A DNA stretch of 64,000 bases from Dyadobacter sp. (GCF_039919315.1 NZ_JBDSFX010000053.1:1120-65119); one strand, 5' to 3'. Shown: positions 50,048 to 63,580, counted from the stretch's first letter. The notes: generated by a model not told the origin, from the sequence alone. Numbers and translations are program-made.

Positions 50048-52402
50048 TTACTTCCTGTACGACGAGATCTTGGCGTACAATTCTGCCGGGCTGAAAGGTT
50101 TGCTGACATAATCATTCATGCCGACGGTGAATGCGATGTCCTTAATGTCGAGCATGGCTGATGCTGTGAGCGCAATGATCGGAAGCTCCGCGTATTTGGC
50201 TTCCGGCAATTGCCGGATTCTCAGAGTAGCCTCATAGCCATCCATTTCGGGCATTTGCAAGTCCATCAGTACCAAGTCGTAATCATTCTCCTGCACTTTC
50301 TGAAGAGCGATCAGGCCATTTTCTGCTACGTCATATTCTACCTCCCATTGTTTCATGAAATTCTTCATCAGAAAGACATTGATCGCGTTGTCTTCCACAA
50401 TGAGAAGCTTCATTCCTTTCAGGCTGAATGTATTTTTAGAGATACCGTTTGTGTGCTCTCCGAGCGGTTTTTGGCCCACCTTAAAAGGCATGCTAAAATA
50501 AAAAACGGAGCCTTTTCCCTGCTCGCTCGTCACGTGGATGCTGATTTGCTGTAATTCCAGCAGTTTTTTGGTGATAGTAAGCCCCAGGCCGGAGCCGCCG
50601 TATTTTCGGGTCGTATCAGAAGTGGCCTGTGTGAAGCTGTCAAATATATTTTCAAGCTTTTCCTTAGGAATACCTATACCGGTATCTTCCACTTTGAAAT
50701 CAATAGTAACCGTCTCATTTTCACGTTTTGAGATGGAGGCAGAAATGGTCACCTTACCCTTTTCGGTAAACTTAACGGCATTGCTCACCAGGTTGGTTAA
50801 TATCTGACCGAGCCGTACGGGATCGCCTATCACCACCATGTTGAGATCTATATCAACGATCAGTTTGAGGTTGATCCCCTTTTCATTCGCTTTTTGCAGC
50901 ACGCCAGAGCGAATATTTTCAAGTAAAAGAAGGATATTGAAATCCACCTCTTCAAACTCGATTTTGCCAGCTTCAATTTTACTGAAATCGAGAATGTCGT
51001 TGATCAGGACGAGCAGGTTTTCTGCGGAGAATTTGAGAATGTTCAGAAATTCCATTTGCTCAGGTTTCGGGTCCTGCTGCAAAAGAAGGTGTGTAAAGCC
51101 GATCACCGCATTCATGGGTGTACGGATTTCATGACTCATCGTGGAAAGAAACTGCGACTTGGCGACCGCAGCCATTTCAGCCTCTTCCTTTGCTTTGATC
51201 AGTTCTGCCTCAGTTTTTTTGTGTGTATCAATGTCCATGATCGCACCATACAGCTTCACAACCCTTCCGGCTTGATCCAAAAAAGGCTTTCCTATGGCAT
51301 GGATAAACTTGATTTTACCGTCGGGCAGTACGATCCGCAGGTCAAAACTTGCCGGGTTGAGGTGGTTGATCGCGTCCTTAATGTGTGATTTGTAGAGGTG
51401 CAGATCATCCGGGTGGATCATCTTGGAAAACAGCTCCGTGTCAGGGCCGCCGCTGTCGGGTTCCAGGCCGAATATCCTGAAAGCCTCATCGGACCAGTAA
51501 TTTTGCCCGGTAATGAGGTCAGCCTCCCAGCTACCTGAGTGGGTAAGCTGCTGCGATTCTGCCAGCATGGCTTCATTGCGGCGGATCACCTCTTCGGCGC
51601 GTTTTCTGTGGCTGATATCGTGCCATACCACCAGCAGTATTTTTTTGTTACTGATCAGTACCGGGTTCAAAGTAACCTCTACAGGAAACTCCTCCCCATT
51701 CATTTTTTTATGGATCCATTCAAACCGGTTGTACCCCGTTTCGTAGGCTATCCGATCCATTTCGGAAGCTTTTTCCGCGGATGTTCTGCCATCGGGCTGA
51801 TACTCGGGAGAGAATCTGGCAGGGTGAATGGACAACAGCTCGCTCTTGTTTTTGCAGAGCAGCATCTTTACGGCCGCCTCATTACAATCCACAATACCGG
51901 TTTCATCCAGCAGCAAATGAGCGTCGGTTGAATATTGAAAGATAACGCTCAGCTTTTCCTCCACGATCTTTCGCTCCGTCAGGTCCTGCAACACACCGTC
52001 CAGCCTTGGGAGCTGGTCCTGATCTATTTTCTGATCGTGTATATCCGAAATCGAACCAACCATACGTTCGGGTTTGCCATTTTCAAACTTGGCTGTACCT
52101 CTGCATTCGAAGTGACGATAACCGTTTTTCTTGGTTTTAAGTCTCACCCTGACCAGGTAGGGCACATTGTTTTCCAACTGCGCTTTGATCGCCTCGGTCA
52201 CAATGATGCGGTCGTCGGGATGAACAAACTTCTCGGTAAATACCCCGTAGCCGGGAGTTATTTCTCCTGGCTCGTACCCCAGCAGTTCGAAAAGACGGTC
52301 GGACCAAACCTGTTTTCCGGTCTGAATCTCCCAATCCCATATTCCGGCGTTGACGCCGGAAATAACCATCTCTAAAGACGCGGGTGCAAATTGGGATTTC
52401 AT
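50048..52402 (-). CDS. Cytoplasmic multi-PAS hybrid histidine kinase
   Basis: GIWDWE, PAS_3 repeats, MSHEIRTPMN, NLVSNAVKFT, GGSGLGL, LMDLQMP. Confidence 0.93.
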   Translation of the reverse strand: MKSQFAPASLEMVISGVNAGIWDWEIQTGKQVWSDRLFELLGYEPGEITPGYGVFTEKFVHPDDRIIVTEAIKAQLENNVPYLVRVRLKTKKNGYRHFECRGTAKFENGKPERMVGSISDIHDQKIDQDQLPRLDGVLQDLTERKIVEEKLSVIFQYSTDAHLLLDETGIVDCNEAAVKMLLCKNKSELLSIHPARFSPEYQPDGRTSAEKASEMDRIAYETGYNRFEWIHKKMNGEEFPVEVTLNPVLISNKKILLVVWHDISHRKRAEEVIRRNEAMLAESQQLTHSGSWEADLITGQNYWSDEAFRIFGLEPDSGGPDTELFSKMIHPDDLHLYKSHIKDAINHLNPASFDLRIVLPDGKIKFIHAIGKPFLDQAGRVVKLYGAIMDIDTHKKTEAELIKAKEEAEMAAVAKSQFLSTMSHEIRTPMNAVIGFTHLLLQQDPKPEQMEFLNILKFSAENLLVLINDILDFSKIEAGKIEFEEVDFNILLLLENIRSGVLQKANEKGINLKLIVDIDLNMVVIGDPVRLGQILTNLVSNAVKFTEKGKVTISASISKRENETVTIDFKVEDTGIGIPKEKLENIFDSFTQATSDTTRKYGGSGLGLTITKKLLELQQISIHVTSEQGKGSVFYFSMPFKVGQKPLGEHTNGISKNTFSLKGMKLLIVEDNAINVFLMKNFMKQWEVEYDVAENGLIALQKVQENDYDLVLMDLQMPEMDGYEATLRIRQLPEAKYAELPIIALTASAMLDIKDIAFTVGMNDYVSKPFSPAELYAKISSYRK

Positions 52403-52597
52403 TGGAAATCAGTTGGATTTATTTCTTTAAATTTAGTATAAATTCGAGTTTCTCATCATCAAATCGGTGCAAGGATTTTACTTCCTGATACATTAAATAT
52501 AAAAAATTATTTTTCGGTTAAATCGTCTTCTCCGATTGTCATGAAAATATGTTTCTTGAAAAAATATTTGCGTGTTAATTTTTAATAAGTTTATTTT

Positions 52598-52616
52598 GTC
52601 TATCATATTTATAGAC
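52598..52616. promoter_or_regulatory. Palindromic operator candidate
   Basis: GTCTAT-CATATTT-ATAGAC perfect 6-7-6 inverted repeat upstream of the sulfatase locus. Confidence 0.55.
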
Positions 52617-52681
52617 TATATGATTTTGTCAGATTAACCACCAGTCAGGCAAAACATGATTTCAAAATTCTTACCGTACCT

Positions 52682-52783
52682 ATGAAAGCGAAAGATTTAC
52701 TTCTCCTTCCGAATGTTTACGCCGGCAAGATGGTGGTTACCGTTTGTTCCCGCCCCATGCCCCCCCGTCGTTCCTGTTGTTGA
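52682..52783 (+). CDS. Putative Cys-rich leader peptide (33 aa)
   Basis: MKAKDLLLLPNVYAGKMVVTVCSRPMPPRRSCC*; ends in TGT TGT TGA; lies in the 5' leader of susC. Confidence 0.55.
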   Translation: MKAKDLLLLPNVYAGKMVVTVCSRPMPPRRSCC

Positions 52784-52989
52784 CCCCGCAAGAAGTCAGT
52801 ATTCAGGTTATCCCGAATTTTAAGGACTGATTCCGAGCCTATGCGCTGTCTTTTCGACCGTGTTTCGTAGGTGATCGTTTGTATAGGCCGTTCATTTGCC
52901 ACTCCGGAAGCGGGGCTGACATGTTGCGTATATATACGATGGTTATCACATTATCCATCCTGCATTATCCATCCTATTGCTCATTAATA

Positions 52990-55900
52990 ATGATTAAGAA
53001 AATTTACTACCTGATTATTTTATCAGGTTCGCTGCTATTCGGCGCTGACTATGCCAGAGCCCAGGACGTCATATCCGGCGTTGTCAAGGACGAATCAGGA
53101 CAGACCTTGCCCGGTGCCACAGTTGTGGAGAAAGGATCTGCCAGATACGCGCTGACGGACGTGGACGGCAAGTTCAGCATCGCTGCTGCCAAAGAATTTC
53201 CATTTACATTACAAATCAACATCACAGGGTTCCAGCAGCAGGAAATTGAGATCTACGAGCTCACTACCGAGGCTGTAGAAATAATCTTGAAGACGGCCAA
53301 CGTGCTCGATGAAGTGGTGGTAATCGGTTATGGTGAACAAAAAAGGAAAGACATTACCGGTTCGGTAGCTTCGGTGCCGATTGAAATAAAAAGCCAGCCG
53401 GTCGCCTCCGTGGAGCGTTTGTTACAAGGCTCAGTAGCGGGAGCCGTGGTTACGCAAACTTCCGGCCAGCCGGGCGGAGGCGTCAGCGTACAGATCCGCG
53501 GGAACAACTCCATTACCGCCGGTAGCGATCCATTGTACGTCATCGACGGTTTTCCGATCAACAATGATTACTCGGTAGCAGATGCTGGTGTAACGGACGG
53601 TTCGAAAATCAACCCGCTGTCTTCCATTAGTACGGCAGATATTGAGAATATCGACGTTTTGAAAGATGCCTCTGCGACTGCAATTTACGGATCTCGCGGT
53701 GCGAATGGCGTTGTGATTATTACCACCAAAAGTGGTACTAAAAACAAGTCTTCTGTCAACTATGACGCCTATTATGGAACTCAGCAGGTTTTAAGAACGA
53801 TTCCATTACTTAATGCGGCTCAATGGTGGCAATTAAGGAAAGATGCAGCTGTCAATTCCGGCAAAACGGCTTCCATTCCGAGCGTAACAGGTTACTCACT
53901 GGACACGACCGGTGCCGGTACCGACTGGCAGGACGCAGCATTCAGAAAAGCGTCCATTCAAAGCCATAACCTGTCCATTCTCTCAGGATCAGACAAAACC
54001 AAGCTGGCGTTTTCAGGTAATTATTTCAAACAAAATGGTATCCTGCAAAACACCAATTTCAGACGTTTATCAGCACGCGTCAATCTGGATCACCAGTATA
54101 ATGACCGTTTCCGCATTTTTACGAGCCTATCGGCCAGTAATACCAAGGCTAATGTAGCTCCTACGGCCATTGTAGGCAATTTGTTGCAAACTCCGCCGGC
54201 GCTACCGGTTTACCAGAATGATGGTTCGTTTGTGATCAACAGCCCATTCGAATCGGCGTTGCAAAACCCGATCAACTCTCTTTACAACCAATTAAACGAA
54301 ACCATTACGAACCGTTTTCTGGGTAACATTTCCGGCGAGTACACCATTGCTGACGGCTTAAAAGCGAAGATTTTGGTCGGTGCGGACATCATTGGTAATA
54401 AGCAAAACCGTTACCTGCCAAGTACCACGGCAGAAGGTCAGGCTTTGAGCGGAGATGCAATAGTAGGTTCAGTATTTACCAGTAACTGGCTGAATGAGAA
54501 CACGATCAGCTATGACAAGGAAATCAATGAAAAGAATAAAATCAATGCGGTAGCAGGTTTCACGGCACAGGTTTCCGAAACCAAAGGTGCGGTTGCAGAA
54601 GCTGCCGGATTCGCAACCGACGCGTTTGAATACAATAACCTGGCAACCGGTATCACCAACATTGCACCACGTTCGCTGGCTAGCAAATGGGCACTTGCAT
54701 CGTATCTGGGCAGGATCAACTACATTTTCGACGAGCGTTACCTGTTTACTTTTACATTACGCGCCGATGGATCCTCCCGTTTTGGCGAGGGTAAAAAATG
54801 GGGATACTTCCCGTCAGCAGCATTTGGCTGGAATGTCAATGAGGAAAAATTCTTTCAGCAGTTCAAAAAAGTCAGTTTGCTGAAACTGCGTTTGAGCGCG
54901 GGAACGACCGGGAATCAGAACATTCCTTCGTACCAGTCACTTTCTCAGCTGAGCTACTTCCGATACAATTTTTCAAACACGACTGTATCAGGTTATGCGC
55001 CTAATACGGTTCCCAATGCGAACCTGGGCTGGGAAAAAACATTCCAGGTTGATGCCGGAATTGACTTGGGCTTGTACAAAAACCGTATCAGCATCATTGC
55101 CGATTATTATTACAAAAGAACGACCGACCTGCTGCTGACCAGGACTGTACCAGGTACTTCGGGCCTCTCCGATTTCTACAATGGTCAGGCGTCTGTGGTG
55201 TACCAGAACATTGGAGAAGTGTCTAACCAGGGATTTGAACTGTATGTCAATTCCCGCAACCTGGAAGGCGCCTTCAAGTGGAATACCATTTTCATTTATT
55301 CTAAAAATACCAACAAGATCCTGAGCCTGGGCGACGGCGTAAACCAGATCATTCCGGTTATTTCCAATCCATCCATTGCGAAGGTAGGTTATCCGCTAGG
55401 TTCATTCATTGTCTATAAAACGGACGGTATCATTCAACACGGCGAAACGCCGCTTACGCCTCAGCAAAACAAAAGCCCGGGTGGACAGAAGTACCAGGAT
55501 ATCAATGGTGACGGCGTGATCACACAGGCTGGTGACCGGGTTGTGATCTCCAATCAGCCAGGGTTTACAACTGGACTCACCAACACATTCAGCTACAAAG
55601 GTTTTGACCTGACAGTTTTCTTCCAGGCGTCCATTGGCGGTAAATTGTACAATGCCAACCGCGCTAACCTCGAACTGGCAACGGGGTATGTGAATGGATC
55701 TGACGTGCTGCTGAACCGGTGGTCTGCTACCAACACCAATACCGAGGTAAAAGCCGCATTCCAGGATCCTGCGATCACTATTTCCGACCGGTTTATCGAA
55801 GACGCGACTTACTATCGTTTGAAAAACCTGTCATTCGGATACACTTTCCCAAAAACGCTGCTTTCGAAGGCAAGGATCGACAATCTGAGGATTTACGTAT

Positions 55901-56049
55901 CGGCGCAGAACCCGAAAACATGGACCAAATACACCGGTTTCGATCCCGAGGTGAGTTTGAACGGCCAATCGCTGATTAACAAAGGCATTGACCAGGGCGT
56001 TTACCCGAATAACAAATCTTACCAGGTCGGATTATCATTAACATTCTGA
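52990..56049 (+). CDS. SusC/RagA TonB-dependent transporter (sulfatase locus)
   Basis: Signal peptide from ATG 52990 (MIKKIYYL...ARAQD); LDEVVVIGYG, DASATAIYGSRGANG, LGWEKT, EDATYYRLKN. Confidence 0.95.
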   Translation: MIKKIYYLIILSGSLLFGADYARAQDVISGVVKDESGQTLPGATVVEKGSARYALTDVDGKFSIAAAKEFPFTLQINITGFQQQEIEIYELTTEAVEIILKTANVLDEVVVIGYGEQKRKDITGSVASVPIEIKSQPVASVERLLQGSVAGAVVTQTSGQPGGGVSVQIRGNNSITAGSDPLYVIDGFPINNDYSVADAGVTDGSKINPLSSISTADIENIDVLKDASATAIYGSRGANGVVIITTKSGTKNKSSVNYDAYYGTQQVLRTIPLLNAAQWWQLRKDAAVNSGKTASIPSVTGYSLDTTGAGTDWQDAAFRKASIQSHNLSILSGSDKTKLAFSGNYFKQNGILQNTNFRRLSARVNLDHQYNDRFRIFTSLSASNTKANVAPTAIVGNLLQTPPALPVYQNDGSFVINSPFESALQNPINSLYNQLNETITNRFLGNISGEYTIADGLKAKILVGADIIGNKQNRYLPSTTAEGQALSGDAIVGSVFTSNWLNENTISYDKEINEKNKINAVAGFTAQVSETKGAVAEAAGFATDAFEYNNLATGITNIAPRSLASKWALASYLGRINYIFDERYLFTFTLRADGSSRFGEGKKWGYFPSAAFGWNVNEEKFFQQFKKVSLLKLRLSAGTTGNQNIPSYQSLSQLSYFRYNFSNTTVSGYAPNTVPNANLGWEKTFQVDAGIDLGLYKNRISIIADYYYKRTTDLLLTRTVPGTSGLSDFYNGQASVVYQNIGEVSNQGFELYVNSRNLEGAFKWNTIFIYSKNTNKILSLGDGVNQIIPVISNPSIAKVGYPLGSFIVYKTDGIIQHGETPLTPQQNKSPGGQKYQDINGDGVITQAGDRVVISNQPGFTTGLTNTFSYKGFDLTVFFQASIGGKLYNANRANLELATGYVNGSDVLLNRWSATNTNTEVKAAFQDPAITISDRFIEDATYYRLKNLSFGYTFPKTLLSKARIDNLRIYVSAQNPKTWTKYTGFDPEVSLNGQSLINKGIDQGVYPNNKSYQVGLSLTF

Positions 56050-57644
56050 TGAAGCCAACATTAATTCCAATGAAAATGAAAGCATTTAAATATATCGTTC
56101 TCGCGATCACCACCATAGCGGCCACTTCCTGCGAAGAGTTCCTGAAAGAGGAGCCGGAAGCTTTTCTCTCAGAAGATCAATATTACAAAACGCAGGCGGA
56201 TGCTATCAATGCAGTTAATGCCGTTTACTTCTTCCTGAATTCGGGAGGTTCGTCCATTCAGACTCCCTACAATACATTGTTCAACACGGGTATGAACATG
56301 GCCAGCGACGACGAAGATCCAGGCCCTGGCGCGACCAACCCGGATGTACGTTCCTTGTCCGTTCAGGCGCATTCGTCGACCAACTTGCGGATTTATGAGC
56401 TTTGGCAGCAACATTATGCGGCCATTAAAAAAGCCAATGTTGTTTTGGAAAAAATTCCTGCGATTGACTTTGATAACACCGTAAAAGCCAGACTGATAGG
56501 CGAAACGAAATTCCTTCGGGCGTTGTATTATTTCAACCTGGTGCGGCTTTACGGCGACATTCCATTGATTTTGGAATACCAAAAATTCGTGAATGCAGCT
56601 GATTACGCCATCGCCAAAACGCCTTCTACGCAGGTCTACGATCAGATTGTGAAGGATTTGACAGAGGCTGCAAGCGTGCTTCCTGCGACTTATGCGTCCC
56701 CGAATATAGGTAGAGCGACTGCCGGTGCTGCCAAAGCATTACTTGCGAAAGTATACCTGACCAAAGCTTCGTTGCCATTGAAAGTGTCTGCAAACTACTC
56801 GGATGCGGTTAGTAAGGCGGAGGAAGTGCTTTCTTCCGCTGATGGCGGAACCGGGACTTATGGTTATGGTTTGGTCAACAATTATGCGGAAGTTTTTCTT
56901 CCGGCTTTTAAAAATAATAAAGAACACATTTTCTCTGCTCAGTTCAAGTCCAATTCTCTGGCGCAGGGAAATAATGAAAGTCCTCGTGCGATACTTTCCG
57001 GGATTCCGGGACTGAGCGGGAATTATGCTCATATGGTGCGCTACTATACGGTGGGCACTGATAAGTTTTTCAGTATTTACAAATTGTTTAAACCTACGGA
57101 TAAGCGTCGGGACGTCACTTTTGTGAGGAATTTCACTAGCCCTACCAATGGACGAAAATATGGATTGAGCATTGCTAATACTGCGGTTCCAAGCGACTCG
57201 ACACCTTTCTGGAACAAATGGTGGGACCCTAATTCTACTGCGGTAACCAACCAGTCGGCTGCTAATGTGCCGATCATTCGTTACTCCGAGCTGCTCTTGA
57301 TCCATGCGGAGGCCGAAAATGAGGTCAATGGCCCGACTGACAAAGCTTACAAATCACTGAACAAAGTCCGTAACCGTGCAGGTTTGCCCAATTTGACTGC
57401 TGGTATCACCAAAGACCAGTTCCGGGATTCATTGTACCTCGACCGTCGTTTGGAACTGGTTTACGAGTACCAGCGCTGGTTTGATCTGATCCGTCAGCGT
57501 GACGCGGCTTATAACGGCACTTTTGTGAAGAACCTGCATAAAGTCGGGAAGACCAATGCTGCACCGAAGCACGCATTTTACCCGATCCCGCAGTCAGAAA
57601 TTGATAACAATGCATTGCTGAAACAAAACCCGCTTTGGGAATAA
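56049..57644 (+). CDS. SusD/RagB lipoprotein
   Basis: Lipobox ATSC, GETKFLRALYYFNLVRLYG, IRYSELLL, RRLELVYE..RWFDL, YPIPQSE; TGATG overlap with susC. Confidence 0.95.
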   Translation: MKPTLIPMKMKAFKYIVLAITTIAATSCEEFLKEEPEAFLSEDQYYKTQADAINAVNAVYFFLNSGGSSIQTPYNTLFNTGMNMASDDEDPGPGATNPDVRSLSVQAHSSTNLRIYELWQQHYAAIKKANVVLEKIPAIDFDNTVKARLIGETKFLRALYYFNLVRLYGDIPLILEYQKFVNAADYAIAKTPSTQVYDQIVKDLTEAASVLPATYASPNIGRATAGAAKALLAKVYLTKASLPLKVSANYSDAVSKAEEVLSSADGGTGTYGYGLVNNYAEVFLPAFKNNKEHIFSAQFKSNSLAQGNNESPRAILSGIPGLSGNYAHMVRYYTVGTDKFFSIYKLFKPTDKRRDVTFVRNFTSPTNGRKYGLSIANTAVPSDSTPFWNKWWDPNSTAVTNQSAANVPIIRYSELLLIHAEAENEVNGPTDKAYKSLNKVRNRAGLPNLTAGITKDQFRDSLYLDRRLELVYEYQRWFDLIRQRDAAYNGTFVKNLHKVGKTNAAPKHAFYPIPQSEIDNNALLKQNPLWE

Positions 57645-57665
57645 TAGCTTTCCTGTGATAGGATC

Positions 57666-59258
57666 ATGATTGATTCGTTGAAAAAAATAGTTGCCTTCCT
57701 GGTATGGATAGTCGCGGTGCTTGTGTATCCGGCTGTCCATGCGCAGGACCAATCCCAAAAACCCAATATCATCCTCATTCTGGCCGACGATTTGGGTTTT
57801 TCGGATCTAGGTAGTTTTGGCTCTGAAATCAAAACACCTAACCTGGATAAACTAGCGGCGAATGGTTTGCGGTTAACACAGTTCTACAACAGCGGTAGAT
57901 GCTGCCCTTCCCGAGCCTCCCTTTTAACGGGACTTTATCCGCATCAGGCTGGGGTAGGGGATATGGTTCAGGACAAAGGTGCGTCGGCATATCAGGGCTA
58001 CCTGAGTGAAAACAGTGTGACGATTGCTCAATTATTGAAAACGGCAGGTTATCATACGATTGTTTCAGGCAAATGGCACGTTGGTCTGGTACCATCCGCA
58101 CTGGCCCACAATCGTGGTTTTGATCATTCATTTACATTACAAAACAATGGCAGCAGTTATTTCAACTCCGAACCACTTTATAACGACGGCCGGAAGGTAA
58201 CATTCCTGCTCAATGGGAAGGAAATTCACCGGCAGGATTCGTCGAAGTACCTTACCCAGGCCATTACCGATTTTGCGATTCAATCATTGGATCAAGTGAA
58301 AAACGATACTAATCCCTTTTTCCTTTATCTGGCCTATAATGCGCCGCATTGGCCGATACAGGCATTGCCGGAAGACATTACCCGCTACAAAGGCAAGTAT
58401 CTGCAAGGCTGGGACTCGGTGAGGGCGGCCAGATTTCAAAAACAGATAGAGCTGGGTATTATTTCAAAAGAGTGGACCCTTTCGGACCGGTATGAAAATG
58501 CGCCCGACTGGAACACGCTATCGAATGCTGAAAAGGAACATTGGGACACCCGTATGGCCATTTATGCCGCTATGGTAGACCGGATGGATCATAGCATAGG
58601 CGAAGTCCTGGCCAAACTAAAACAGCTCAAAAAGGACGAGAATACATTAATCCTCTTCATTTCGGATAACGGCGGAAGTGGCGATACTGTGAAACAATGG
58701 GACTATGTGACCCAAAAAAACGGAGAGCCAGGCTCGGTGGCATCTATCGACAGCTACGATCCGCCCTGGGGCAATGTCAGCAACACACCATTCAAGTTAT
58801 TCAAGAAAAATACACATGAAGGCGGAGTCGCATCACCATTCATCGCCTACTTTCCGGGAACTGTGAAACCGGGTACAATAAGCCACCAGGTAGCGCACCT
58901 CACCGACATTATGCCAACTTTCCTGGATTTGGCCGGGATCAAATATCCATCGGAATTCAATGGTAAACGACTAGTAGCCGCGGAGGGAATTTCATTGAAA
59001 AATTTGTTCAAAAACCCTCAGTTAACAAAGCCAAAGACTATTTTCTGGGAACATGAAGGCAGCCGGGCGGTGCGGCAAAATGACTGGAAACTTGTGGCGG
59101 AAATTAATCAGCCGTGGGAGTTATACAATTTGAAGAAAGACCGCACGGAGACGCACAATCTGGCAAATCAATACCCGGAAAAAGTATTGGAACTACAAAA
59201 GGAATATCTGGAATGGTCGCGGAAAGTGGGTGTGGTGGATTGGAATACGATCAAGTGA
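57666..59258 (+). CDS. Arylsulfatase (formylglycine-dependent S1 family, Cys-type)
   Basis: PNIILILADDLG, CCPSRASLLTG, SGKWHVG, APHWP. Confidence 0.93.
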   Translation: MIDSLKKIVAFLVWIVAVLVYPAVHAQDQSQKPNIILILADDLGFSDLGSFGSEIKTPNLDKLAANGLRLTQFYNSGRCCPSRASLLTGLYPHQAGVGDMVQDKGASAYQGYLSENSVTIAQLLKTAGYHTIVSGKWHVGLVPSALAHNRGFDHSFTLQNNGSSYFNSEPLYNDGRKVTFLLNGKEIHRQDSSKYLTQAITDFAIQSLDQVKNDTNPFFLYLAYNAPHWPIQALPEDITRYKGKYLQGWDSVRAARFQKQIELGIISKEWTLSDRYENAPDWNTLSNAEKEHWDTRMAIYAAMVDRMDHSIGEVLAKLKQLKKDENTLILFISDNGGSGDTVKQWDYVTQKNGEPGSVASIDSYDPPWGNVSNTPFKLFKKNTHEGGVASPFIAYFPGTVKPGTISHQVAHLTDIMPTFLDLAGIKYPSEFNGKRLVAAEGISLKNLFKNPQLTKPKTIFWEHEGSRAVRQNDWKLVAEINQPWELYNLKKDRTETHNLANQYPEKVLELQKEYLEWSRKVGVVDWNTIK

Positions 59259-59310
59259 AAGTTTTAAAACGCAGGAATTTCAAAGTATTGATCATCATAA
59301 ATTATCGATT

Positions 59311-61620
59311 ATGAAAAGAATAATATTACGTTTCAACCGCTGGGCACTGGCCGCATTTACATTGTGGTCAGCAAGCGCAATTGCCCAGCATGCACCTACT
59401 CAGCCTTATCAGGGGAAAATTGGGAAGACAGTTGCAGACACGCAGCAGTCGTGGCCGGAAAAGAAAAAAGCACCCAAAGGCGCGCCGAATGTGGTTTGGA
59501 TTTTGCTGGACGACATAGGTTATGGAGCAGTGAGCACATTCGGTGGACTCATTAATACGCCTACACTGGACAGTCTCGCCAATAATGGTTTACGATATAC
59601 CAATTTCCATACGACCGCGATTTGCGCACCAACCCGCGCGGCATTACTCACGGGACGCAACCAGCATTCGGCGCATATGGGATTATTCCCTGAAACTGCG
59701 ATCGGTACGCCAGGTTACGACGCGATTATGCCTTTTGAAAAAGCGACCATTGCGGAAATCCTGAAAGACAATGGGTACAACACGTTTGCATTAGGAAAAT
59801 GGCACATTACGCCGCTGGCCGATCTTACACCGTCCGGGCCATTTAACCGCTGGCCAACCGGACGAGGGTTTGAACAGTTTTACGGATTCCCATCCCGCGG
59901 CAGCATTGACCAGTGGCACCCCGAGCTATGGGAAGGTACCCATCGTGAACCGGATCGTCAGGATGGCAAGCATTTCAATGAATTACTGGCCAATCGGGCG
60001 ATCAGGTATTTGTCCGGACAAAAATCAGGCAACCCTGACAAGCCATTTTTCCTTTACATCGCTACCGGTGCAGGCCATGCGCCACATCAGGTTGCAAAGC
60101 AATGGTCGGACAAGTACAAAGGGAAATTTGACGGTGGCTGGGACGAGTACCGCGAAAAGGTGCTTGCCAATCAGATCAAACTGGGTGTAGTACCAAAAAA
60201 CACGAAATTGACAGACCGTAATGCGGGAATCAAGGCTTGGAATACGCTTTCGGCGGACGAGAAGAAGCTATACGCACGGTTTATGGAAACCTATGCGGGA
60301 TTCCTGGAATATACAGATTACGAAATTGGTCGGGTGATCAAGCATATCAAAGATTCCGGGCAACTGGATAATACTTTGGTGATCGTTTCGGTGGGCGATA
60401 ATGGAGCAAGTAAGGAAGGAACATTTGTAGGGACGGTCAATAATTTCGGCGCGGAATTGCCGGAGGAACAAAGGCTTAAAAAGAACCTGGAACAGATTGA
60501 CCTGATCGGTACCGAGTTTTCAAAAGTGAATTATCCACTGGGATGGGCGGCTGCCACCAATGTTCCGTTTCGGCAATGGAAGCAGGATGCGAATGCTGAG
60601 GGCGGCACGCATAATCCTTTAATCGTTTTTTATCCAAAAGGCATTCAGGAAAAAGGGGGGATTAGGAACCAGTACGGTCACGTGATTGATATTTTGCCTA
60701 CTACTTTGGAACTGACGAACATCAAGGCGCCGACGGCTGTGAATGGTATCAAACAAGATCCGATTGAGGGTACAAGCCTGGTTTATAGCTTAAATGACGC
60801 TGCCGCTAAAAATCGTCACCTTGTTCAGTATTATGAGATCAAAGGTTCAAGATCGATCTACAAAGACGGCTGGAAAGCTGGCGCATTGCACGTGAGAGGC
60901 CAGGAGTTTGAGAAAGACAAATGGGAGCTTTATAACCTGACTGAGGATTTTAATGAAGCCAATGATCTTGCCACTACCCAGCCTGCCAAGTTGAAAAAGC
61001 TGCGGGCATTGTTTGAAAGCGAGGCTACGAAGTATAATGTGTACCCGTTGAAAGACGGTACTGAGCCTTTTACTTTGCCAACGGCTTATAATGATGTGGA
61101 CAAAGTCGTGCTCTATCCCGGCCAGTCTACGATCATTGACATTGGCAGTCCGTTTGCGCTGAAACGTTCATTTTCCCTGGTAGCGGATGTGGAAAATCTG
61201 GGAGTAGAAACGGAAGGTGTGTTATTGTCACGCGGAGGCAGCGTGGGCGGTCTGAGCTTTTTTATTCAAAACCATAAGTTGCAGTTTGTCTATGCGGTTG
61301 GCGATGGGACGAAATATACGGCAAGTTCCGAAAATACCACGCTTCCGATCGGCAAGGCGGAATTGAAAGTCAGTGTGAAATATGATCAGAATGGTACGGG
61401 GTTGATCAGTTTGTATGCCAATAATATCAAAGTAGGCGAGACCTCTATTGGAAAAACTTCGGACGCATTGTACCTGCATGAAGGAGTGAATGTCGGTTTT
61501 GACGACCTGACACCGGTAGGGGATACCTATAAAGTGCCTTTTACCTATACGGGCAAAATCACTAAGGTGACTATTGATCTGGACCAGGACCAGCAGGCGC
61601 AATTGCGGACTGGGAAATGA
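59311..61620 (+). CDS. Arylsulfatase (S1 family, Cys-type) with C-terminal LamG-like domain
   Basis: PNVVWILLDDIG, CAPTRAALLTGRN, GKWH, HAPH; signal peptide from ATG 59311. Confidence 0.92.
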   Translation: MKRIILRFNRWALAAFTLWSASAIAQHAPTQPYQGKIGKTVADTQQSWPEKKKAPKGAPNVVWILLDDIGYGAVSTFGGLINTPTLDSLANNGLRYTNFHTTAICAPTRAALLTGRNQHSAHMGLFPETAIGTPGYDAIMPFEKATIAEILKDNGYNTFALGKWHITPLADLTPSGPFNRWPTGRGFEQFYGFPSRGSIDQWHPELWEGTHREPDRQDGKHFNELLANRAIRYLSGQKSGNPDKPFFLYIATGAGHAPHQVAKQWSDKYKGKFDGGWDEYREKVLANQIKLGVVPKNTKLTDRNAGIKAWNTLSADEKKLYARFMETYAGFLEYTDYEIGRVIKHIKDSGQLDNTLVIVSVGDNGASKEGTFVGTVNNFGAELPEEQRLKKNLEQIDLIGTEFSKVNYPLGWAAATNVPFRQWKQDANAEGGTHNPLIVFYPKGIQEKGGIRNQYGHVIDILPTTLELTNIKAPTAVNGIKQDPIEGTSLVYSLNDAAAKNRHLVQYYEIKGSRSIYKDGWKAGALHVRGQEFEKDKWELYNLTEDFNEANDLATTQPAKLKKLRALFESEATKYNVYPLKDGTEPFTLPTAYNDVDKVVLYPGQSTIIDIGSPFALKRSFSLVADVENLGVETEGVLLSRGGSVGGLSFFIQNHKLQFVYAVGDGTKYTASSENTTLPIGKAELKVSVKYDQNGTGLISLYANNIKVGETSIGKTSDALYLHEGVNVGFDDLTPVGDTYKVPFTYTGKITKVTIDLDQDQQAQLRTGK

Positions 61621-61759
61621 TTGTCAGGACACCGCAATAGAGGAATGTCAAATCGCATGATGTTACATGTCTGACGGCATTTTAAAATAAAATGTCACAT
61701 TTAATACACCTAAATCGCGTAGCGACGTACCATCGATACCAAACGGACCAACAATTCGA

Positions 61760-63580
61760 ATGAACAAACAACTGGTAACAATCTTCTTAGCAATATTCAT
61801 TTTCGGCGAAATCAATGCGCAGGATCGTCCGAACATCCTGTGGATTGTAAGCGAGGATAATACCACGATGCTAGGCAGTTACGGCGACAAATTCGCGACT
61901 ACGCCTAACCTGGACAAATTTGCTTCCGAAAGCATCCGGTACAAAAATGCATTCTCGACCGCACCGGTGTGTGCGCCTTCGCGTAACACATTGATCACAG
62001 GCATGTACCCGCCTTCCCTAGGCACAGAACATATGCGGAGCGAATATCCGGTACCTGATTTTGTGAGATTCTTTCCCAGGTATTTGCGGGAAGCAGGTTA
62101 CTATACGACCAACAATGCCAAAAAAGATTACAACACGGACGATCAGTCTGCGGAAGCGTGGGACGAATCGAGCAACAAGGCTACTTACAAAAACCGCAAG
62201 CCCGGTCAGCCTTTTTTCGCTGTTTTTAATCTGAATGTTTCGCATGAAAGTTCATTGCACGAGCCCGTGGCATCATTACATCACGACCCAGAGAAAGTGG
62301 TTTTGCCGCCTTACCATCCGGCCACTCCCGAGCTGAAACACGATTGGGCGCAGTACTACGACAAGCTGGAAGAAATGGACCGGCAGTTTGCGCAGCTTTT
62401 GAAGGAATTGCAGGATGAAGGCCTGGCCGAAAACACGATTGTTTTTTACTATGCAGATAATGGTGGCGTGCTGGCTCGTAGCAAGCGGTTTATGTACGAA
62501 TCAGGTCTGCATGTACCATTGATCATTCATCTACCTCCAAAGTATGCTCATTTAGCTAAGGAAAAACAAGGGACGGTGTCGGACAGGCTGGTCACTTTTC
62601 TGGACTTCGCGCCTACGGTTTTGAGTCTTACGGATATCAAAGTTCCTGACTATATGCAAGGCGGTGCTTTTTTAGGGAAACAGCAGAAACCGGAATCAGA
62701 GTATGCGTATGGCTTTCGCGGCAGAATGGACGAGCGGATTGACATGTCGAGATCGGTTCGTGATAAGAAATATCGTTACATCCGGAATTATTTGCCCAAT
62801 AAAATTTACGGTCAGTACCTGGAATATCTGTGGCGTGCGCCGTCGGTGAAATCCTGGGAGGATGCTTACAAAGCGGGAAAACTGAATGCTGATCAGTCGA
62901 AATTCTGGGAGGCGAAGCCTGCCGAGGAGCTATTCGATGTGGATGCTGACCCGCATAACATTCGTAACCTTGCCGGTGACGCGAAGTATAAGTCGGAACT
63001 CGTGCGCATGCGAAAAGCGAATGATCAATGGGTTCGAAAATTGAAAGATGTAGGGTTTATCCCGGAAGCAATACTTTATGAAATCGCGAAGGAAACACCG
63101 CTGTACGATTATGCAAGAAGCGGCCAATACGATCTGGAAAAGATCATTGCCACGGCTGACATTGCGTCTTCACGAAATCCTGCGCATTCAAAAGAATTGA
63201 TTAAAAGGCTCACCGACAATGATCCAGCGGTAAGATACTGGGCGGCGACCGGCCTGGCTGTCTTGAACGATGGTTCAGCGAAAGATTTGTTGAAAAAGTG
63301 CCTGAGTGACTCGGAGGCTGCTGTTCGGATTGCGGCAGCAGAAGCATTATATGTAACAAACACCGACAAACCGGGCGCGGTAGCAGCGTTAACAGAAGCT
63401 TTGAAAAGCGACAATCCTTATGTTCGCCTGCAGGCATTAAACATTTTGGATTTGATCGGTCAGGACGCAAAACCGGCGCTGGAACTGGTCAAGAAAATAG
63501 CAGATCAGAAGGCTGAAATGTTTGATTATGATATTCGTGCGGCGAAGGTGCTTTTGGAGAATTTAGGGAAGAGTGAATAA
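61760..63580 (+). CDS. Sulfatase (S1 family, Cys-type) with C-terminal HEAT repeats
   Basis: PNILWIVSED, CAPSRNTLITG; C-terminal DPAVRYWAA, EAAVRIAAAEAL, NPYVRLQAL. Confidence 0.9.
   Translation: MNKQLVTIFLAIFIFGEINAQDRPNILWIVSEDNTTMLGSYGDKFATTPNLDKFASESIRYKNAFSTAPVCAPSRNTLITGMYPPSLGTEHMRSEYPVPDFVRFFPRYLREAGYYTTNNAKKDYNTDDQSAEAWDESSNKATYKNRKPGQPFFAVFNLNVSHESSLHEPVASLHHDPEKVVLPPYHPATPELKHDWAQYYDKLEEMDRQFAQLLKELQDEGLAENTIVFYYADNGGVLARSKRFMYESGLHVPLIIHLPPKYAHLAKEKQGTVSDRLVTFLDFAPTVLSLTDIKVPDYMQGGAFLGKQQKPESEYAYGFRGRMDERIDMSRSVRDKKYRYIRNYLPNKIYGQYLEYLWRAPSVKSWEDAYKAGKLNADQSKFWEAKPAEELFDVDADPHNIRNLAGDAKYKSELVRMRKANDQWVRKLKDVGFIPEAILYEIAKETPLYDYARSGQYDLEKIIATADIASSRNPAHSKELIKRLTDNDPAVRYWAATGLAVLNDGSAKDLLKKCLSDSEAAVRIAAAEALYVTNTDKPGAVAALTEALKSDNPYVRLQALNILDLIGQDAKPALELVKKIADQKAEMFDYDIRAAKVLLENLGKSE

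What the first reader, a model, noticed from the sequence alone, without database searches (positions are those of the whole stretch)
52656..52989. Cys-Cys leader peptide: candidate cysteine-sensing attenuator for the sulfatase locus
Seen: a 33-aa uORF (52682-52783) ending ...VC SRPMPPRR SCC-stop, with 3 Cys and 3 Met upstream of S-depleted genes. A 9-aa uORF (52656-52685) overlaps its start (ATGA). The 3' part is very C-rich. GTTGACCCCGC (52779-52789, spanning the stop) can pair 10/11 with GCGGGGCTGAC (52910-52920), and GCCCC upstream is an alternative partner. A 13-bp direct repeat CATTATCCATCCT occurs at 52949 and 52963. No classical hairpin-U terminator is evident. Inference: ribosome stalling at Cys codons controls readthrough, possibly Rho-dependent; I know of no described example for Bacteroidota Sus loci.
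Basis: partly seen in the sequence, partly recalled or inferred. Interest (0 to 1): 0.7.

Follow-up and report, generated by a model that had tools for sequence, protein, structure and literature searches.

The report
Cysteine-codon leader ORF, sulfur-scavenging regulon
The 33-codon reading frame ending in Cys-Cys-stop is one copy of a leader conserved across Dyadobacter and related genera, placed before sulfatase and outer-membrane uptake genes whose proteins are almost free of sulfur, so it most likely switches sulfur scavenging on when ribosomes run short of cysteine.

Summary
The uORF at 52682-52783 (MKAKD...RRSCC*) precedes a SusC/SusD/three-sulfatase operon. That SusC has no Cys and no internal Met in 1019 aa.

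The genus is Dyadobacter. A shared leader recurs 1-11 times per genome in 56 of 62 species. It has a promoter-like box, a palindrome GTCTAT-N7-ATAGAC, and a hairpin with the invariant loop A(A/G)CCACC. Of 103 copies, 64 carry an 18-53 codon ORF with at least 2 Cys in its last 9 residues (2.3 expected), and 49 of these end exactly Cys-stop. The ORF stays open to an ATG 19-45 nt after the loop in 52 of 52 leaders, against 13 and 2 in the other two frames. A GGUGG complementary to the loop lies inside the ORF, a median of 32 nt before the Cys cluster.

Downstream genes are sulfatases, SusC-type receptors, a binding-protein-like gene, rhodanese-thioredoxin and an ECF sigma factor.

I read it as a cysteine-sensing ribosome-stalling leader. 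The output step is unresolved. There is no excess of intrinsic terminators and no Cys-tract pairing with the main start. Pyrimidine-rich flanks, a long spacer and a rho gene make Rho-dependent termination the best guess.

The closest published analogue is the mycobacterial polycysteine sORFs.

The parts
52567..52598 (+). Promoter-like region: TTTG (52567-52570), 21 nt, then TTTATTTTG (52590-52598). It resembles the Bacteroidota -33 TTTG / -7 TAnnTTTG type promoter.
   Evidence: The box TTAYTTTG directly 5' of the palindrome, with TTG/TTTG about 21 nt upstream, is shared by most paralogous leaders. The transcription start is inferred, not mapped.
52598..52616 (.). Palindrome GTCTATCATATTTATAGAC (GTCTAT-N7-ATAGAC). 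It overlaps the inferred transcription start and is a presumed operator of an unidentified sulfur regulator.
   Evidence: The pattern TTTGTCTAY-N8-9-TAG-N5-35-CCACC is found in 56 of 62 Dyadobacter genomes, with almost no control matches. The palindrome also stands directly before sulfatase genes that have no leader: L012, L014 and G000 C51.
52624..52654 (+). Hairpin P1: stem 52624-52635 with 52643-52654; 7-nt loop AACCACC at 52636-52642.
   Evidence: In 114 distinct copies, 73% of stem cells are paired against 49% in shuffles. The covariation score is 0.64 against 0.23, reached by 0 of 500 shuffles, and slid registers give 0.32 or less. Loop sequences: AACCACC 75, AGCCACC 23, TACCACC 14.
52656..52685 (+). 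9-aa ORF overlapping the start of the main uORF.
   Evidence: Present in this genome only. The ATG is ACG in the nearest relative and absent in the other orthologs. Judged incidental.
52682..52783 (+). Leader ORF of 33 codons: MKAKDLLLLPNVYAGKMVVTVCSRPMPPRRSCC*.
   Evidence: It is intact in all 13 orthologs despite in-frame length changes. In 52 of 52 leaders defined only by GGTGG plus a Cys tail, the frame stays open to an ATG 19-45 nt after the loop; the other frames give 13 of 52 and 2 of 52.
52732..52738 (+). Element B, GGUGGUU, complementary to the P1 loop AACCACC. It lies inside the uORF (codons Met-Val-Val).
   Evidence: GGTGG lies 25-80 nt before the uORF end in 53 of 63 leaders; shuffles give a mean of 2.4 and a maximum of 7. 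The flanking pair is A-U 31, G-C 4, G-U 4, other 14, for example AGCCACC with GGUGGCU in L058, L083, L110 and L113. From the end of B to the first Cys codon of the cluster: median 32 nt, interquartile range 29-32; here 38 nt.
52739..52774 (+). Pyrimidine-rich, G-poor tract between B and the terminal Cys codons. It includes the internal Cys codon at 52745-52747.
   Evidence: Family average at -40 to -20 from the stop: C 0.33, T 0.35, G 0.15. The C/G ratio around the uORF end has a median of 1.36 against 1.0 in the genome.
52775..52783 (+). TGT TGT TGA: two terminal Cys codons and the stop. This is the presumed sensing site.
   Evidence: 64 of 103 leaders have at least 2 Cys in the last 9 residues, against 2.3 expected and a maximum of 8. 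49 of the 64 end Cys-stop. Cys makes up 35% of the tail and 1.9% of the rest. TGT is used in 74% of cases against 42% genome-wide, and TGA in 78% against 27%.
52784..52989 (+). Untranslated spacer of 206 nt before SusC. It holds a genome-specific insertion of about 65 nt (about 52860-52925), the palindrome CGTATATATACG (52927-52938) and the tandem repeat (52949-52975).
   Evidence: One search shows the alignment with the orthologs. No terminator is found. The motif (G/A)CGTATAT recurs in 17 leaders.
52990..63580 (+). Controlled operon: SusC-type TonB-dependent receptor (52990-56049), SusD (56049-57644) and three sulfatases (57666-59258, 59230-61620, 61760-63580).
   Evidence: Pfam assignments are.

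Best explanation
The region 52567-52989 is the promoter and 5' leader of a sulfur-scavenging operon (SusC, SusD, three sulfatases). It belongs to a regulon-wide leader family of Dyadobacter and other Spirosomataceae.

Shown by comparison:
- A shared promoter-like box and palindrome.
- A hairpin whose loop is always A(A/G)CCACC.
- An ATG about 37 nt further on that opens a short ORF.
- A GGUGG complementary to the loop inside that ORF.
- About 30 nt later, 2-5 Cys codons, usually directly followed by the stop.
- A spacer of 70-310 nt without a terminator, then the first structural gene.

Inferred mechanism. The leader ORF is translated. When charged tRNA-Cys is plentiful, the ribosome runs through the Cys codons and leaves at the stop. 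The pyrimidine-rich RNA around the ORF end is then bare, and expression of the operon is cut down in the long spacer, most likely by Rho. When cysteine is short, the ribosome stalls on the Cys codons, perhaps with a second one queued on the GGUGG exactly one ribosome length behind. It covers or blocks that RNA, so transcription and translation reach SusC and the sulfatases, which free sulfate from sulfate esters.

The palindrome probably adds a second, transcription-factor layer. The role of the loop:GGUGG pairing is not known. It encloses the start codon of the first ORF of the transcript. It may time or gate translation of the leader, or be the element that a ribosome queue displaces.
For: - Family and statistics: the pattern is in 56 of 62 genomes, with controls near 0. 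64 of 103 leaders carry a Cys-tailed ORF against 2.3 expected.
- Translation: 52 of 52 frames stay open to a positioned ATG, against 13 and 2 in the other frames. Orthologs keep the frame through length changes from 33 to 53 codons.
- Codon identity rather than a fixed RNA word: TGT and TGC are mixed; Ser, Pro or Arg codons are interspersed; all three stop codons occur.
- When the stop is displaced by 3-9 codons, the Cys codons keep their distance from GGUGG.
- Sulfur logic: the downstream genes are sulfatases, SusC/TonB receptors, rhodanese-thioredoxin and others. Their proteins are sulfur-poor: SusC has 0 Cys and 0 internal Met; in the second operon on C75, a 1009-aa SusC has 1 Cys and 1 Met.
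- Internal Met is not enriched once the GGUGG-linked AUG is set aside, so the signal is Cys.
- Spread: the same design occurs in four or more other Spirosomataceae genera and in a Chitinophagaceae MAG.
- Rho-type output: no excess of intrinsic terminators; C/G ratio 1.36 and YC density 0.16 around the ORF end against 1.0 and 0.116 in the genome; a rho gene is present; long spacers.
- Precedent: cysteine-responsive polycysteine sORFs in mycobacteria (bioRxiv 10.1101/834739).
Against: - There are no expression data: no mapped transcription start, no ribosome profiling, no test with cysteine.
- The output step is not shown. The rut-like composition is modest. No conserved structure was found in the spacer of the binding-protein group. 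The spacer of this window differs from that of most orthologs.
- This copy has only two terminal Cys codons, while most orthologs have four.
- The bias towards TGT and TGA, and the conserved loop:GGUGG pair, show that RNA-level constraints also act on the ORF. Part of the conservation therefore need not be about the peptide's codons.
- About a third of the leaders, for example the rhodanese group, have the hairpin and GGUGG but no Cys ORF. The hairpin system therefore works without it.
Confidence: 0.62

Rival explanations
1. Translational or structural attenuation of the mycobacterial type. The stalled ribosome prevents an RNA pairing that otherwise hides the start region of SusC, or remodels the loop:GGUGG pairing so that the start region opens. 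No transcription termination is involved.
For: This is the proven mechanism of the closest published analogue. Bacteroidota start sites depend on unstructured RNA (my own knowledge). GGUGG pairs slightly better with main-start regions than shuffled versions do, -8.2 against -7.3 kcal/mol, p = 0.0035. In leaders without a uORF, the loop:GGUGG pair brackets or touches the main start codon: L044, L106, L030, L068.
Against: The Cys segment pairs no better with the main start than shuffled versions, -8.42 against -8.56 kcal/mol. Predicted pairing of the Cys segment with the start region averages 0.03. The spacer is 70-310 nt long and not conserved between paralogs.
Confidence: 0.17
2. The conserved thing is an RNA element: the CCACC-loop hairpin, GGUGG and a UGU-rich tract, bound by a protein, a small RNA or a ligand. 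The reading frame is a by-product or only a helper.
For: The hairpin and GGUGG are conserved even in leaders without a Cys ORF. TGT and TGA are over-used relative to the genome. A second structured RNA with an invariant GGUGGUU core sits in the same regulon.
Against: The frame is open to a positioned ATG in 52 of 52 leaders, against 13 and 2 in the other frames. Length changes are in frame. Cys codons are interchangeable and interspersed with other codons. The Cys tail is absent from the hairpin-only leaders, so it is a separable module. There is no Rfam match.
Confidence: 0.1
3. Classical leader-peptide transcription attenuation with alternative antiterminator and intrinsic-terminator hairpins, as in the trp, his and leu leaders.
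For: A short ORF with clustered codons for the relevant amino acid stands ahead of genes that supply it. Such designs with terminators were noted for polycysteine leaders of other phyla in earlier notes of this scan (unchecked).
Against: There is no terminator-like site on the + strand of this leader. Family-wide, 11 of 63 leaders have one against 7.4 in shuffles.
Confidence: 0.04
4. The ORF encodes a functional small Cys-rich peptide, for example a metal or sulfur carrier, or a modified peptide. It is co-expressed with the operon and does not act as a sensor.
For: The ORF is conserved and its C-terminal Cys cluster is the conserved part of the peptide.
Against: Apart from Cys and the RNA-constrained Val-Val, the peptides share no residues between paralog groups. 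Length and sequence of the middle part drift freely. A Cys-rich product at the head of operons whose proteins avoid Cys and Met is the opposite of sulfur economy. No signal peptide or modification enzyme is linked.
Confidence: 0.04
5. Chance ORF. Control of the operon rests only on the transcription factor that binds the palindrome.
For: The palindrome alone precedes some sulfatase genes.
Against: The statistics, and conservation across genera.
Confidence: 0.03

Closest known systems
Mycobacterial polycysteine leaderless short ORFs (Ms5788A and the 'Cys ribulon'; Canestrari et al., bioRxiv 10.1101/834739)
   Same: A short ORF with two or more consecutive Cys codons heads the operon. Several sulfur- or cysteine-related operons of one genome share the design. 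The sensing principle proposed there and shown by mutation, ribosome pausing for lack of Cys-tRNA, is the one inferred here.
   Different: - Not leaderless: the ATG lies about 75-80 nt from the inferred start, behind a conserved hairpin.
- The Cys codons sit at the very end of the ORF.
- No pairing of the Cys tract with the downstream start region was found.
- The targets are sulfate-ester scavenging and outer-membrane uptake genes, not cysteine biosynthesis.
- A shared promoter/palindrome and a loop:GGUGG pairing are added.
- The phylum is Bacteroidota.
tnaC leader of the E. coli tryptophanase operon (ribosome stalled at the leader's end blocks Rho; my own knowledge)
   Same: A leader ORF of about 24-33 codons. 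The regulatory event occurs at the last codons or the stop, with TGA preferred. A spacer of about 200 nt has no intrinsic terminator. C-rich RNA lies next to the stop codon. The proposed action is to hide RNA from Rho.
   Different: tnaC senses free tryptophan through the nascent peptide and blocked release. Here no peptide motif is conserved and the signal would be lack of Cys-tRNA. Rho dependence is not shown here.
Classical leader-peptide attenuators, including the Bacteroidota Trp leader (Rfam RF01692 Bacteroid-trp; my own knowledge)
   Same: A translated leader with clustered codons of the sensed amino acid. It shows that ribosome-mediated leaders exist in this phylum.
   Different: There is no terminator/antiterminator pair and no Rfam match.
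Sulfate-starvation-induced regulons with sulfur-poor proteins (Pseudomonas and E. coli Cbl/CysB-controlled ats, ssu and tau genes; my own knowledge)
   Same: Sulfatases and uptake systems are induced by sulfur shortage. The induced proteins are depleted in Cys and Met.
   Different: Those are controlled by LysR-type activators, not by a leader ORF. Here uptake is through SusC/SusD-type outer-membrane machinery.

Membership tests
Classical leader-peptide transcription attenuator (trp/his type) | Short translated leader ORF with clustered codons for the sensed amino acid | tested here: met
   At sequence level: 64 of 103 leaders have a Cys tail, and 52 of 52 frames are open to a positioned ATG. 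Translation itself was not observed.
Classical leader-peptide transcription attenuator (trp/his type) | Intrinsic terminator with a mutually exclusive antiterminator after the leader ORF | tested here: not met
   None on the + strand of this leader. Family-wide, 11 of 63 against 7.4 in shuffles. The candidate pairing is not conserved.
Mycobacterial polycysteine leaderless sORF attenuators | At least two consecutive Cys codons in an sORF heading sulfur-related operons, at several loci per genome | tested here: met
   There are three full copies in this genome and 1-11 per genome across the genus.
Mycobacterial polycysteine leaderless sORF attenuators | Leaderless mRNA: the start codon is at the transcription start | tested here: not met
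   The ATG lies 19-45 nt after a conserved hairpin, which itself follows the promoter-like box. The transcription start is inferred, not mapped.
Mycobacterial polycysteine leaderless sORF attenuators | The Cys-tract region base-pairs with the ribosome-binding region of the next gene | tested here: not met
   Duplex energy -8.42 against -8.56 kcal/mol for shuffled versions. Pair probability 0.03.
tnaC-type Rho-dependent leader control | C-rich, G-poor Rho loading site next to the leader's stop codon | tested here: inconclusive
   C/G median 1.36 against 1.0; YC density 0.16 against 0.116; p = 5e-13 against genome windows. The effect is modest.
tnaC-type Rho-dependent leader control | Rho factor present; long spacer without an intrinsic terminator | tested here: met
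   A rho gene is present: PF07497 at 119.7 bits in a 601-aa frame. Spacers are 70-310 nt, 206 nt here.
tnaC-type Rho-dependent leader control | Termination in the spacer depends on Rho and is relieved by the stalled ribosome | not testable with these tools
   This needs Rho depletion or inhibition, Term-seq or in vitro transcription.
Any Rfam family | Match to a curated covariance model | tested here: not met
   No match with E below 0.1 in 52300-53100. No match at gathering score in 12 related leaders.

The most novel reading that the evidence does not exclude
Spirosomataceae would run a two-layer sulfur-starvation regulon. Its RNA layer would be a collision sensor. The GGUGG that pairs with the invariant CCACC hairpin loop sits one ribosome length before the Cys codons (median 32 nt). 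Only a queue of two ribosomes on the Cys codons would therefore hold GGUGG away from the loop. The freed loop, or the masked pyrimidine tract, would then switch the operon on. The same CCACC loop would also talk to the GGUGGUU core of a second, undescribed structured RNA found in the same regulon. That would make a family of leaders built from exchangeable modules (hairpin, Cys ORF, structured RNA) in a phylum that lacks Shine-Dalgarno initiation.
Probability: 0.15. Interest if true: 0.85.

Novelty: new variant of a known kind. Interest (0 to 1): 0.66.

Why it matters
Regulation of Sus-like loci in Bacteroidota is usually explained by hybrid two-component systems, SusR-type regulators, ECF sigma/anti-sigma pairs and antisense RNAs. 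A ribosome-read cysteine sensor in front of SusC/SusD and sulfatase operons would add another kind of control.

It would also mark these 'polysaccharide-type' loci as sulfur-scavenging systems rather than carbon-foraging ones. A SusC with no Met or Cys at all supports that reading.

The finding gives a clean, multi-copy natural test set of more than 100 leaders with and without the Cys ORF. That set can address how leader-peptide control works in bacteria without Shine-Dalgarno initiation and without an intrinsic terminator.

I found a published description of cysteine-codon attenuation only for mycobacteria. This case, together with unchecked notes from other windows of this scan, suggests the principle is much more widespread.

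Tried and rejected
- Rfam on the region and on 12 related leaders: nothing.
- Sigma-70 and terminator scan: no + strand terminator.
- DNA search of this genome with the 3' leader: no repeats.
- Intrinsic terminators family-wide: not enriched.
- Pairing of the Cys tract with the main start region: none.
- Consensus structure of the spacer in the binding-protein group: none found.
- Met enrichment in the leader peptides: none beyond the AUG that belongs to the GGUGG element.
- ECF-type promoter reading of the CGTATAT motif: no conserved -35-like partner seen by eye, so left open.
- My first claim that GGUGG is 'frame-independent': withdrawn, because 50 of 53 copies are in one frame. That follows from the translated, length-constrained stretch between GGUGG and the Cys codons.
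- The covariation of the loop:GGUGG pair is only modest once the anchored core is set aside.
The spread outside the genus rests.
- One literature search timed out.

Full report
**Observation.** The window stretch 52403-52989 lies between a divergent hybrid histidine kinase (50048-52402, minus strand) and a SusC-type receptor that starts at 52990.

- the 33-codon ORF at 52682-52783, MKAKDLLLLPNVYAGKMVVTVCSRPMPPRRSCC*;
- the overlapping 9-codon ORF;
- the C-rich 3' part;
- the 10/11 complementarity of 52779-52789 with 52910-52920, two of the pairs being G-U;
- the direct repeat at 52949 and 52963;
- the lack of a hairpin plus U-run terminator.

The operon behind it encodes SusC, SusD and three sulfatases. 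The claim of sulfur-poor genes is confirmed and is striking. SusC has no Cys and no internal Met in 1019 residues. SusD has 1 Cys and 5 Met. Sulfatase 2 has 1 Cys and 4 Met in 796 residues. The background for 3165 long frames of the genome is 0.74% Cys and 2.1% Met.

**Orthologs.** A DNA search in related genomes matched only the 5' part of the leader, 52552-52704. Reading the matched loci showed that the whole design is kept.

Thirteen orthologous SusC leaders carry an intact ORF. It starts ATGAAAGCGAAAGA and ends in CCSCC, CCPCC or SCSCC followed by TGA. The middle part varies from 33 to 53 codons, always in frame. One ortholog, L058, has a threefold 15-nt repeat there.

The nearest relative (L060) and the window form a sub-lineage whose spacer after the uORF differs from the other eleven.
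- the ATG of the 9-codon ORF is ACG;
- the 3' partner of the 10/11 pairing lies in a window-specific insertion of about 65 nt;
- the tandem repeat is degenerate.

**A leader family.** The 5' part recurs at other loci. The pattern TTTGTCTAY-N8-9-TAG-N5-35-CCACC is found in 56 of 62 genomes of the genus, 1-11 times each. The reversed control pattern is almost absent. Record titles identify the genus as Dyadobacter.

The window's genome has three full copies:
- the window itself;
- C75, with uORF MKSMNQYSSQCKIVPMVVSCLYFWLPSDSCCCC*, before a binding-protein-like gene, sulfatases and a second SusC/SusD;
- C101, with uORF MNFHSEQVTYIDPMVVSSPLFPPLKESCC*, before a sulfatase.

I collected 103 non-identical copies.
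- 64 carry an ORF of 18-53 codons that starts 19-70 nt after CCACC and has at least two Cys among its last nine residues. Shuffled leaders give 2.3 on average and 8 at most.
- In 49 of the 64 the last Cys is the last codon before the stop.
- Cys makes up 35% of the tail and 1.9% of the rest.

TGT and TGC are mixed. Ser, Pro or Arg codons are interspersed. All three stop codons occur. What is kept is therefore the codon meaning rather than one RNA word. Even so, TGT (74% against 42% in the genome) and TGA (78% against 27%) are preferred.

Internal Met is not enriched once the AUG that belongs to the GGUGG element is set aside.

**Is the frame read from the upstream ATG?** I took 52 leaders defined only by an in-frame GGTGG and a Cys tail. 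In all 52 the frame stays open upstream to an ATG that lies 19-45 nt after the CCACC loop. In the other two frames this holds for 13 and 2 of the 52. Together with the in-frame length changes among orthologs, this is strong sequence-level evidence for translation from that ATG.

First, CCACC is the loop of a hairpin. In the window the stem is 52624-52635 with 52643-52654 and the loop is AACCACC. In 114 distinct copies:
- the eight stem positions are paired in 73% of cells, against 49% in shuffles;
- the covariation score is 0.64 against 0.23, reached by 0 of 500 shuffles;
- slid registers give 0.32 or less;
- the loop is AACCACC (75), AGCCACC (23) or TACCACC (14).

Second, GGTGG, the complement of the loop, lies 25-80 nt before the uORF end in 53 of 63 leaders. 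Shuffles give a mean of 2.4 and a maximum of 7. In the window it is GGTGGTT at 52732-52738.

Flanking positions give some support for pairing: A-U 31, G-C 4, G-U 4, other 14. AGCCACC pairs with GGUGGCU in four leaders. The covariation score is 0.089 against 0.066, reached by 0 of 500 shuffles. This support is modest.

From the end of GGUGG to the first Cys codon of the cluster the median is 32 nt, with an interquartile range of 29-32. That is about one ribosome length.

Where the stop is displaced by several codons, the Cys codons keep this distance. This points to the Cys codons, not the stop, as the sensed site.

In leaders without a Cys ORF, the hairpin and a GGUGG are still present, and the pair brackets or touches the start codon of the main gene.

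**What the regulon is.** The genes behind these leaders are:
- sulfatases;
- SusC/TonB-dependent receptors;
- a binding-protein-like gene;
- a rhodanese-thioredoxin fusion;
- an ECF sigma factor;
- fatty-acid-hydroxylase-family membrane proteins preceded by a 39-residue membrane peptide;
- several proteins without a Pfam match.

The second operon of this genome is as sulfur-poor as the first. Its 1009-residue SusC has 1 Cys and 1 Met.

The promoter-like box and palindrome also stand directly before sulfatase genes that have no leader. A transcription-factor layer probably exists beside the leader.

Outside Dyadobacter, the full design, including tails such as CCCCC*, CCCCR*, CCC* and LCC*, occurs in Rhabdobacter and at least three further Spirosomataceae genera, and in one Chitinophagaceae MAG.

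**Mechanism.** The sensing step is ribosome stalling on Cys codons when Cys-tRNA is short. It is inferred from the anatomy, from the sulfur logic, and from the mycobacterial precedent in which polycysteine short ORFs were shown by mutation to be cysteine-responsive attenuators (bioRxiv 10.1101/834739).

The output step is not resolved.
- Intrinsic terminators are not enriched between uORF and main gene: 11 of 63 against 7.4 in shuffles.
- The Cys segment does not pair preferentially with the main start region: -8.42 against -8.56 kcal/mol, and a pair probability of 0.03.
- No consensus structure was found in the spacer of the largest paralog group.
- The whole window leader folds no better than shuffles.

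What is common to the paralogs is the following:
- pyrimidine-rich, G-poor flanks on both sides of the Cys codons;
- a C/G ratio of 1.36 against 1.0 and a higher YC density;
- a pyrimidine after the stop in 49 of 63 leaders;
- a spacer of 70-310 nt;
- a rho gene in the genome.

This fits a tnaC-like scheme. A ribosome held at the end of the leader ORF keeps Rho off the RNA or blocks its path. I rate this the most likely output, at about 0.4 given that the sensor reading is right. A translational or structural switch that involves the loop:GGUGG pair comes next.

**Comparison and novelty.** The element fails the defining structural features of classical attenuators, because it has no terminator. 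It also fails those of the mycobacterial class, because it is not leaderless and shows no pairing of the Cys tract with the start region. It shares their sensing principle. It matches no Rfam family.

My literature searches found no description of a cysteine-codon leader in Bacteroidota.

Earlier notes of this scan are unchecked AI notes and not independent evidence. They report:
- a Met/Cys-rich leader ORF before sulfur-poor binding-protein/SusC operons in Bacteroidales;
- many polycysteine leaders with terminators in other phyla;
- the sulfur-free SusC of this very window.

These agree with my reading and lower the surprise of the principle. The Spirosomataceae design is distinct in three ways: the CCACC-loop hairpin, GGUGG at one ribosome length from the Cys codons, and no terminator, in front of sulfatase loci.

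I therefore file it as a new variant of a known kind.

**Limits.**
- The counts include related sequences, so the shuffle statistics overstate independence.
- The window's own copy has only two terminal Cys codons.

Noticed in passing
G000 contig C54:88790-88900 (also C54:95119 and C82:40283); L010, L041, L046, L048, L050, L053, L071, L075, L086, L090, L097: A second conserved structured RNA of about 95-110 nt sits in the same sulfur-regulon leaders. Its outer helix is CCGGAAAUAUCCC...GGGAUAUUUCCGG, which covaries to CUCCUGAUACCC...GGGUAUCAGGAG. Its inner helix is GGCAGU...ACUGUC, and its invariant core is GAUUUUCGGUGGUUGUCAAUU. It follows the Cys uORF in the membrane-protein leaders, and stands alone before a sulfatase and a SusC. 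The core 13-mer is in 57 of 62 Dyadobacter genomes. There is no Rfam match. It is a candidate riboswitch-like element whose GGUGGUU is complementary to the CCACC loop.
   Followed up: partly
window 52990-56049: The SusC-type receptor has no Cys and no Met after the initiator in 1019 residues. The whole operon is sulfur-poor, which marks it as a sulfur-starvation system rather than a carbon-foraging locus.
   Followed up: yes
window 52927-52938; L008, L027, L076, L089, L093, L094, L095 and the SusC orthologs: The motif (G/A)CGTATAT(A/G)C, often followed by AAGKTA, lies 45-95 nt before the start of SusC-type and arylsulfatase genes in 17 leaders of different paralog groups. In the window it is the 12-nt palindrome CGTATATATACG. 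Its function is unknown: a second promoter, an operator or an RNA site.
   Followed up: partly
G000 contig C75:174877-186200: A second sulfur-poor operon stands behind a CCCC-tailed leader. It encodes a binding-protein-like gene (0 Cys), a sulfatase, a SusC (1009 aa, 1 Cys, 1 Met), a SusD and two more sulfatases.
   Followed up: partly
G000 C51:122439 (minus strand); L012; L014: The promoter-like box and the palindrome GTCTAY-N7-ATAGA stand directly before sulfatase genes, with no hairpin and no uORF. The palindrome is therefore a separable module, presumably an operator of an unidentified regulator. It has the T-N11-A form typical of LysR-type sites.
   Followed up: no
L009, L040 (second site), L077, L088: Leaders of rhodanese-thioredoxin fusion genes keep the CCACC-loop hairpin and a downstream GGUGG but have no Cys-tailed ORF.
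   Followed up: no
L043, L044: Two degenerate variants. In L043 the leader ORF is fused in frame to the binding-protein-like gene. In L044 the sulfatase itself starts at the ATGGTGGTT of the GGUGG element.
   Followed up: no
window 52860-52925 versus L060: This genome carries an insertion of about 65 nt in the spacer relative to its nearest relative.
   Followed up: yes
L058, middle of the leader ORF: A threefold 15-nt tandem repeat (GRSLPGRSLPGRSLPGR) lies inside the leader ORF and is in frame. It shows that the middle of the peptide is free to vary while the frame is kept.
   Followed up: no
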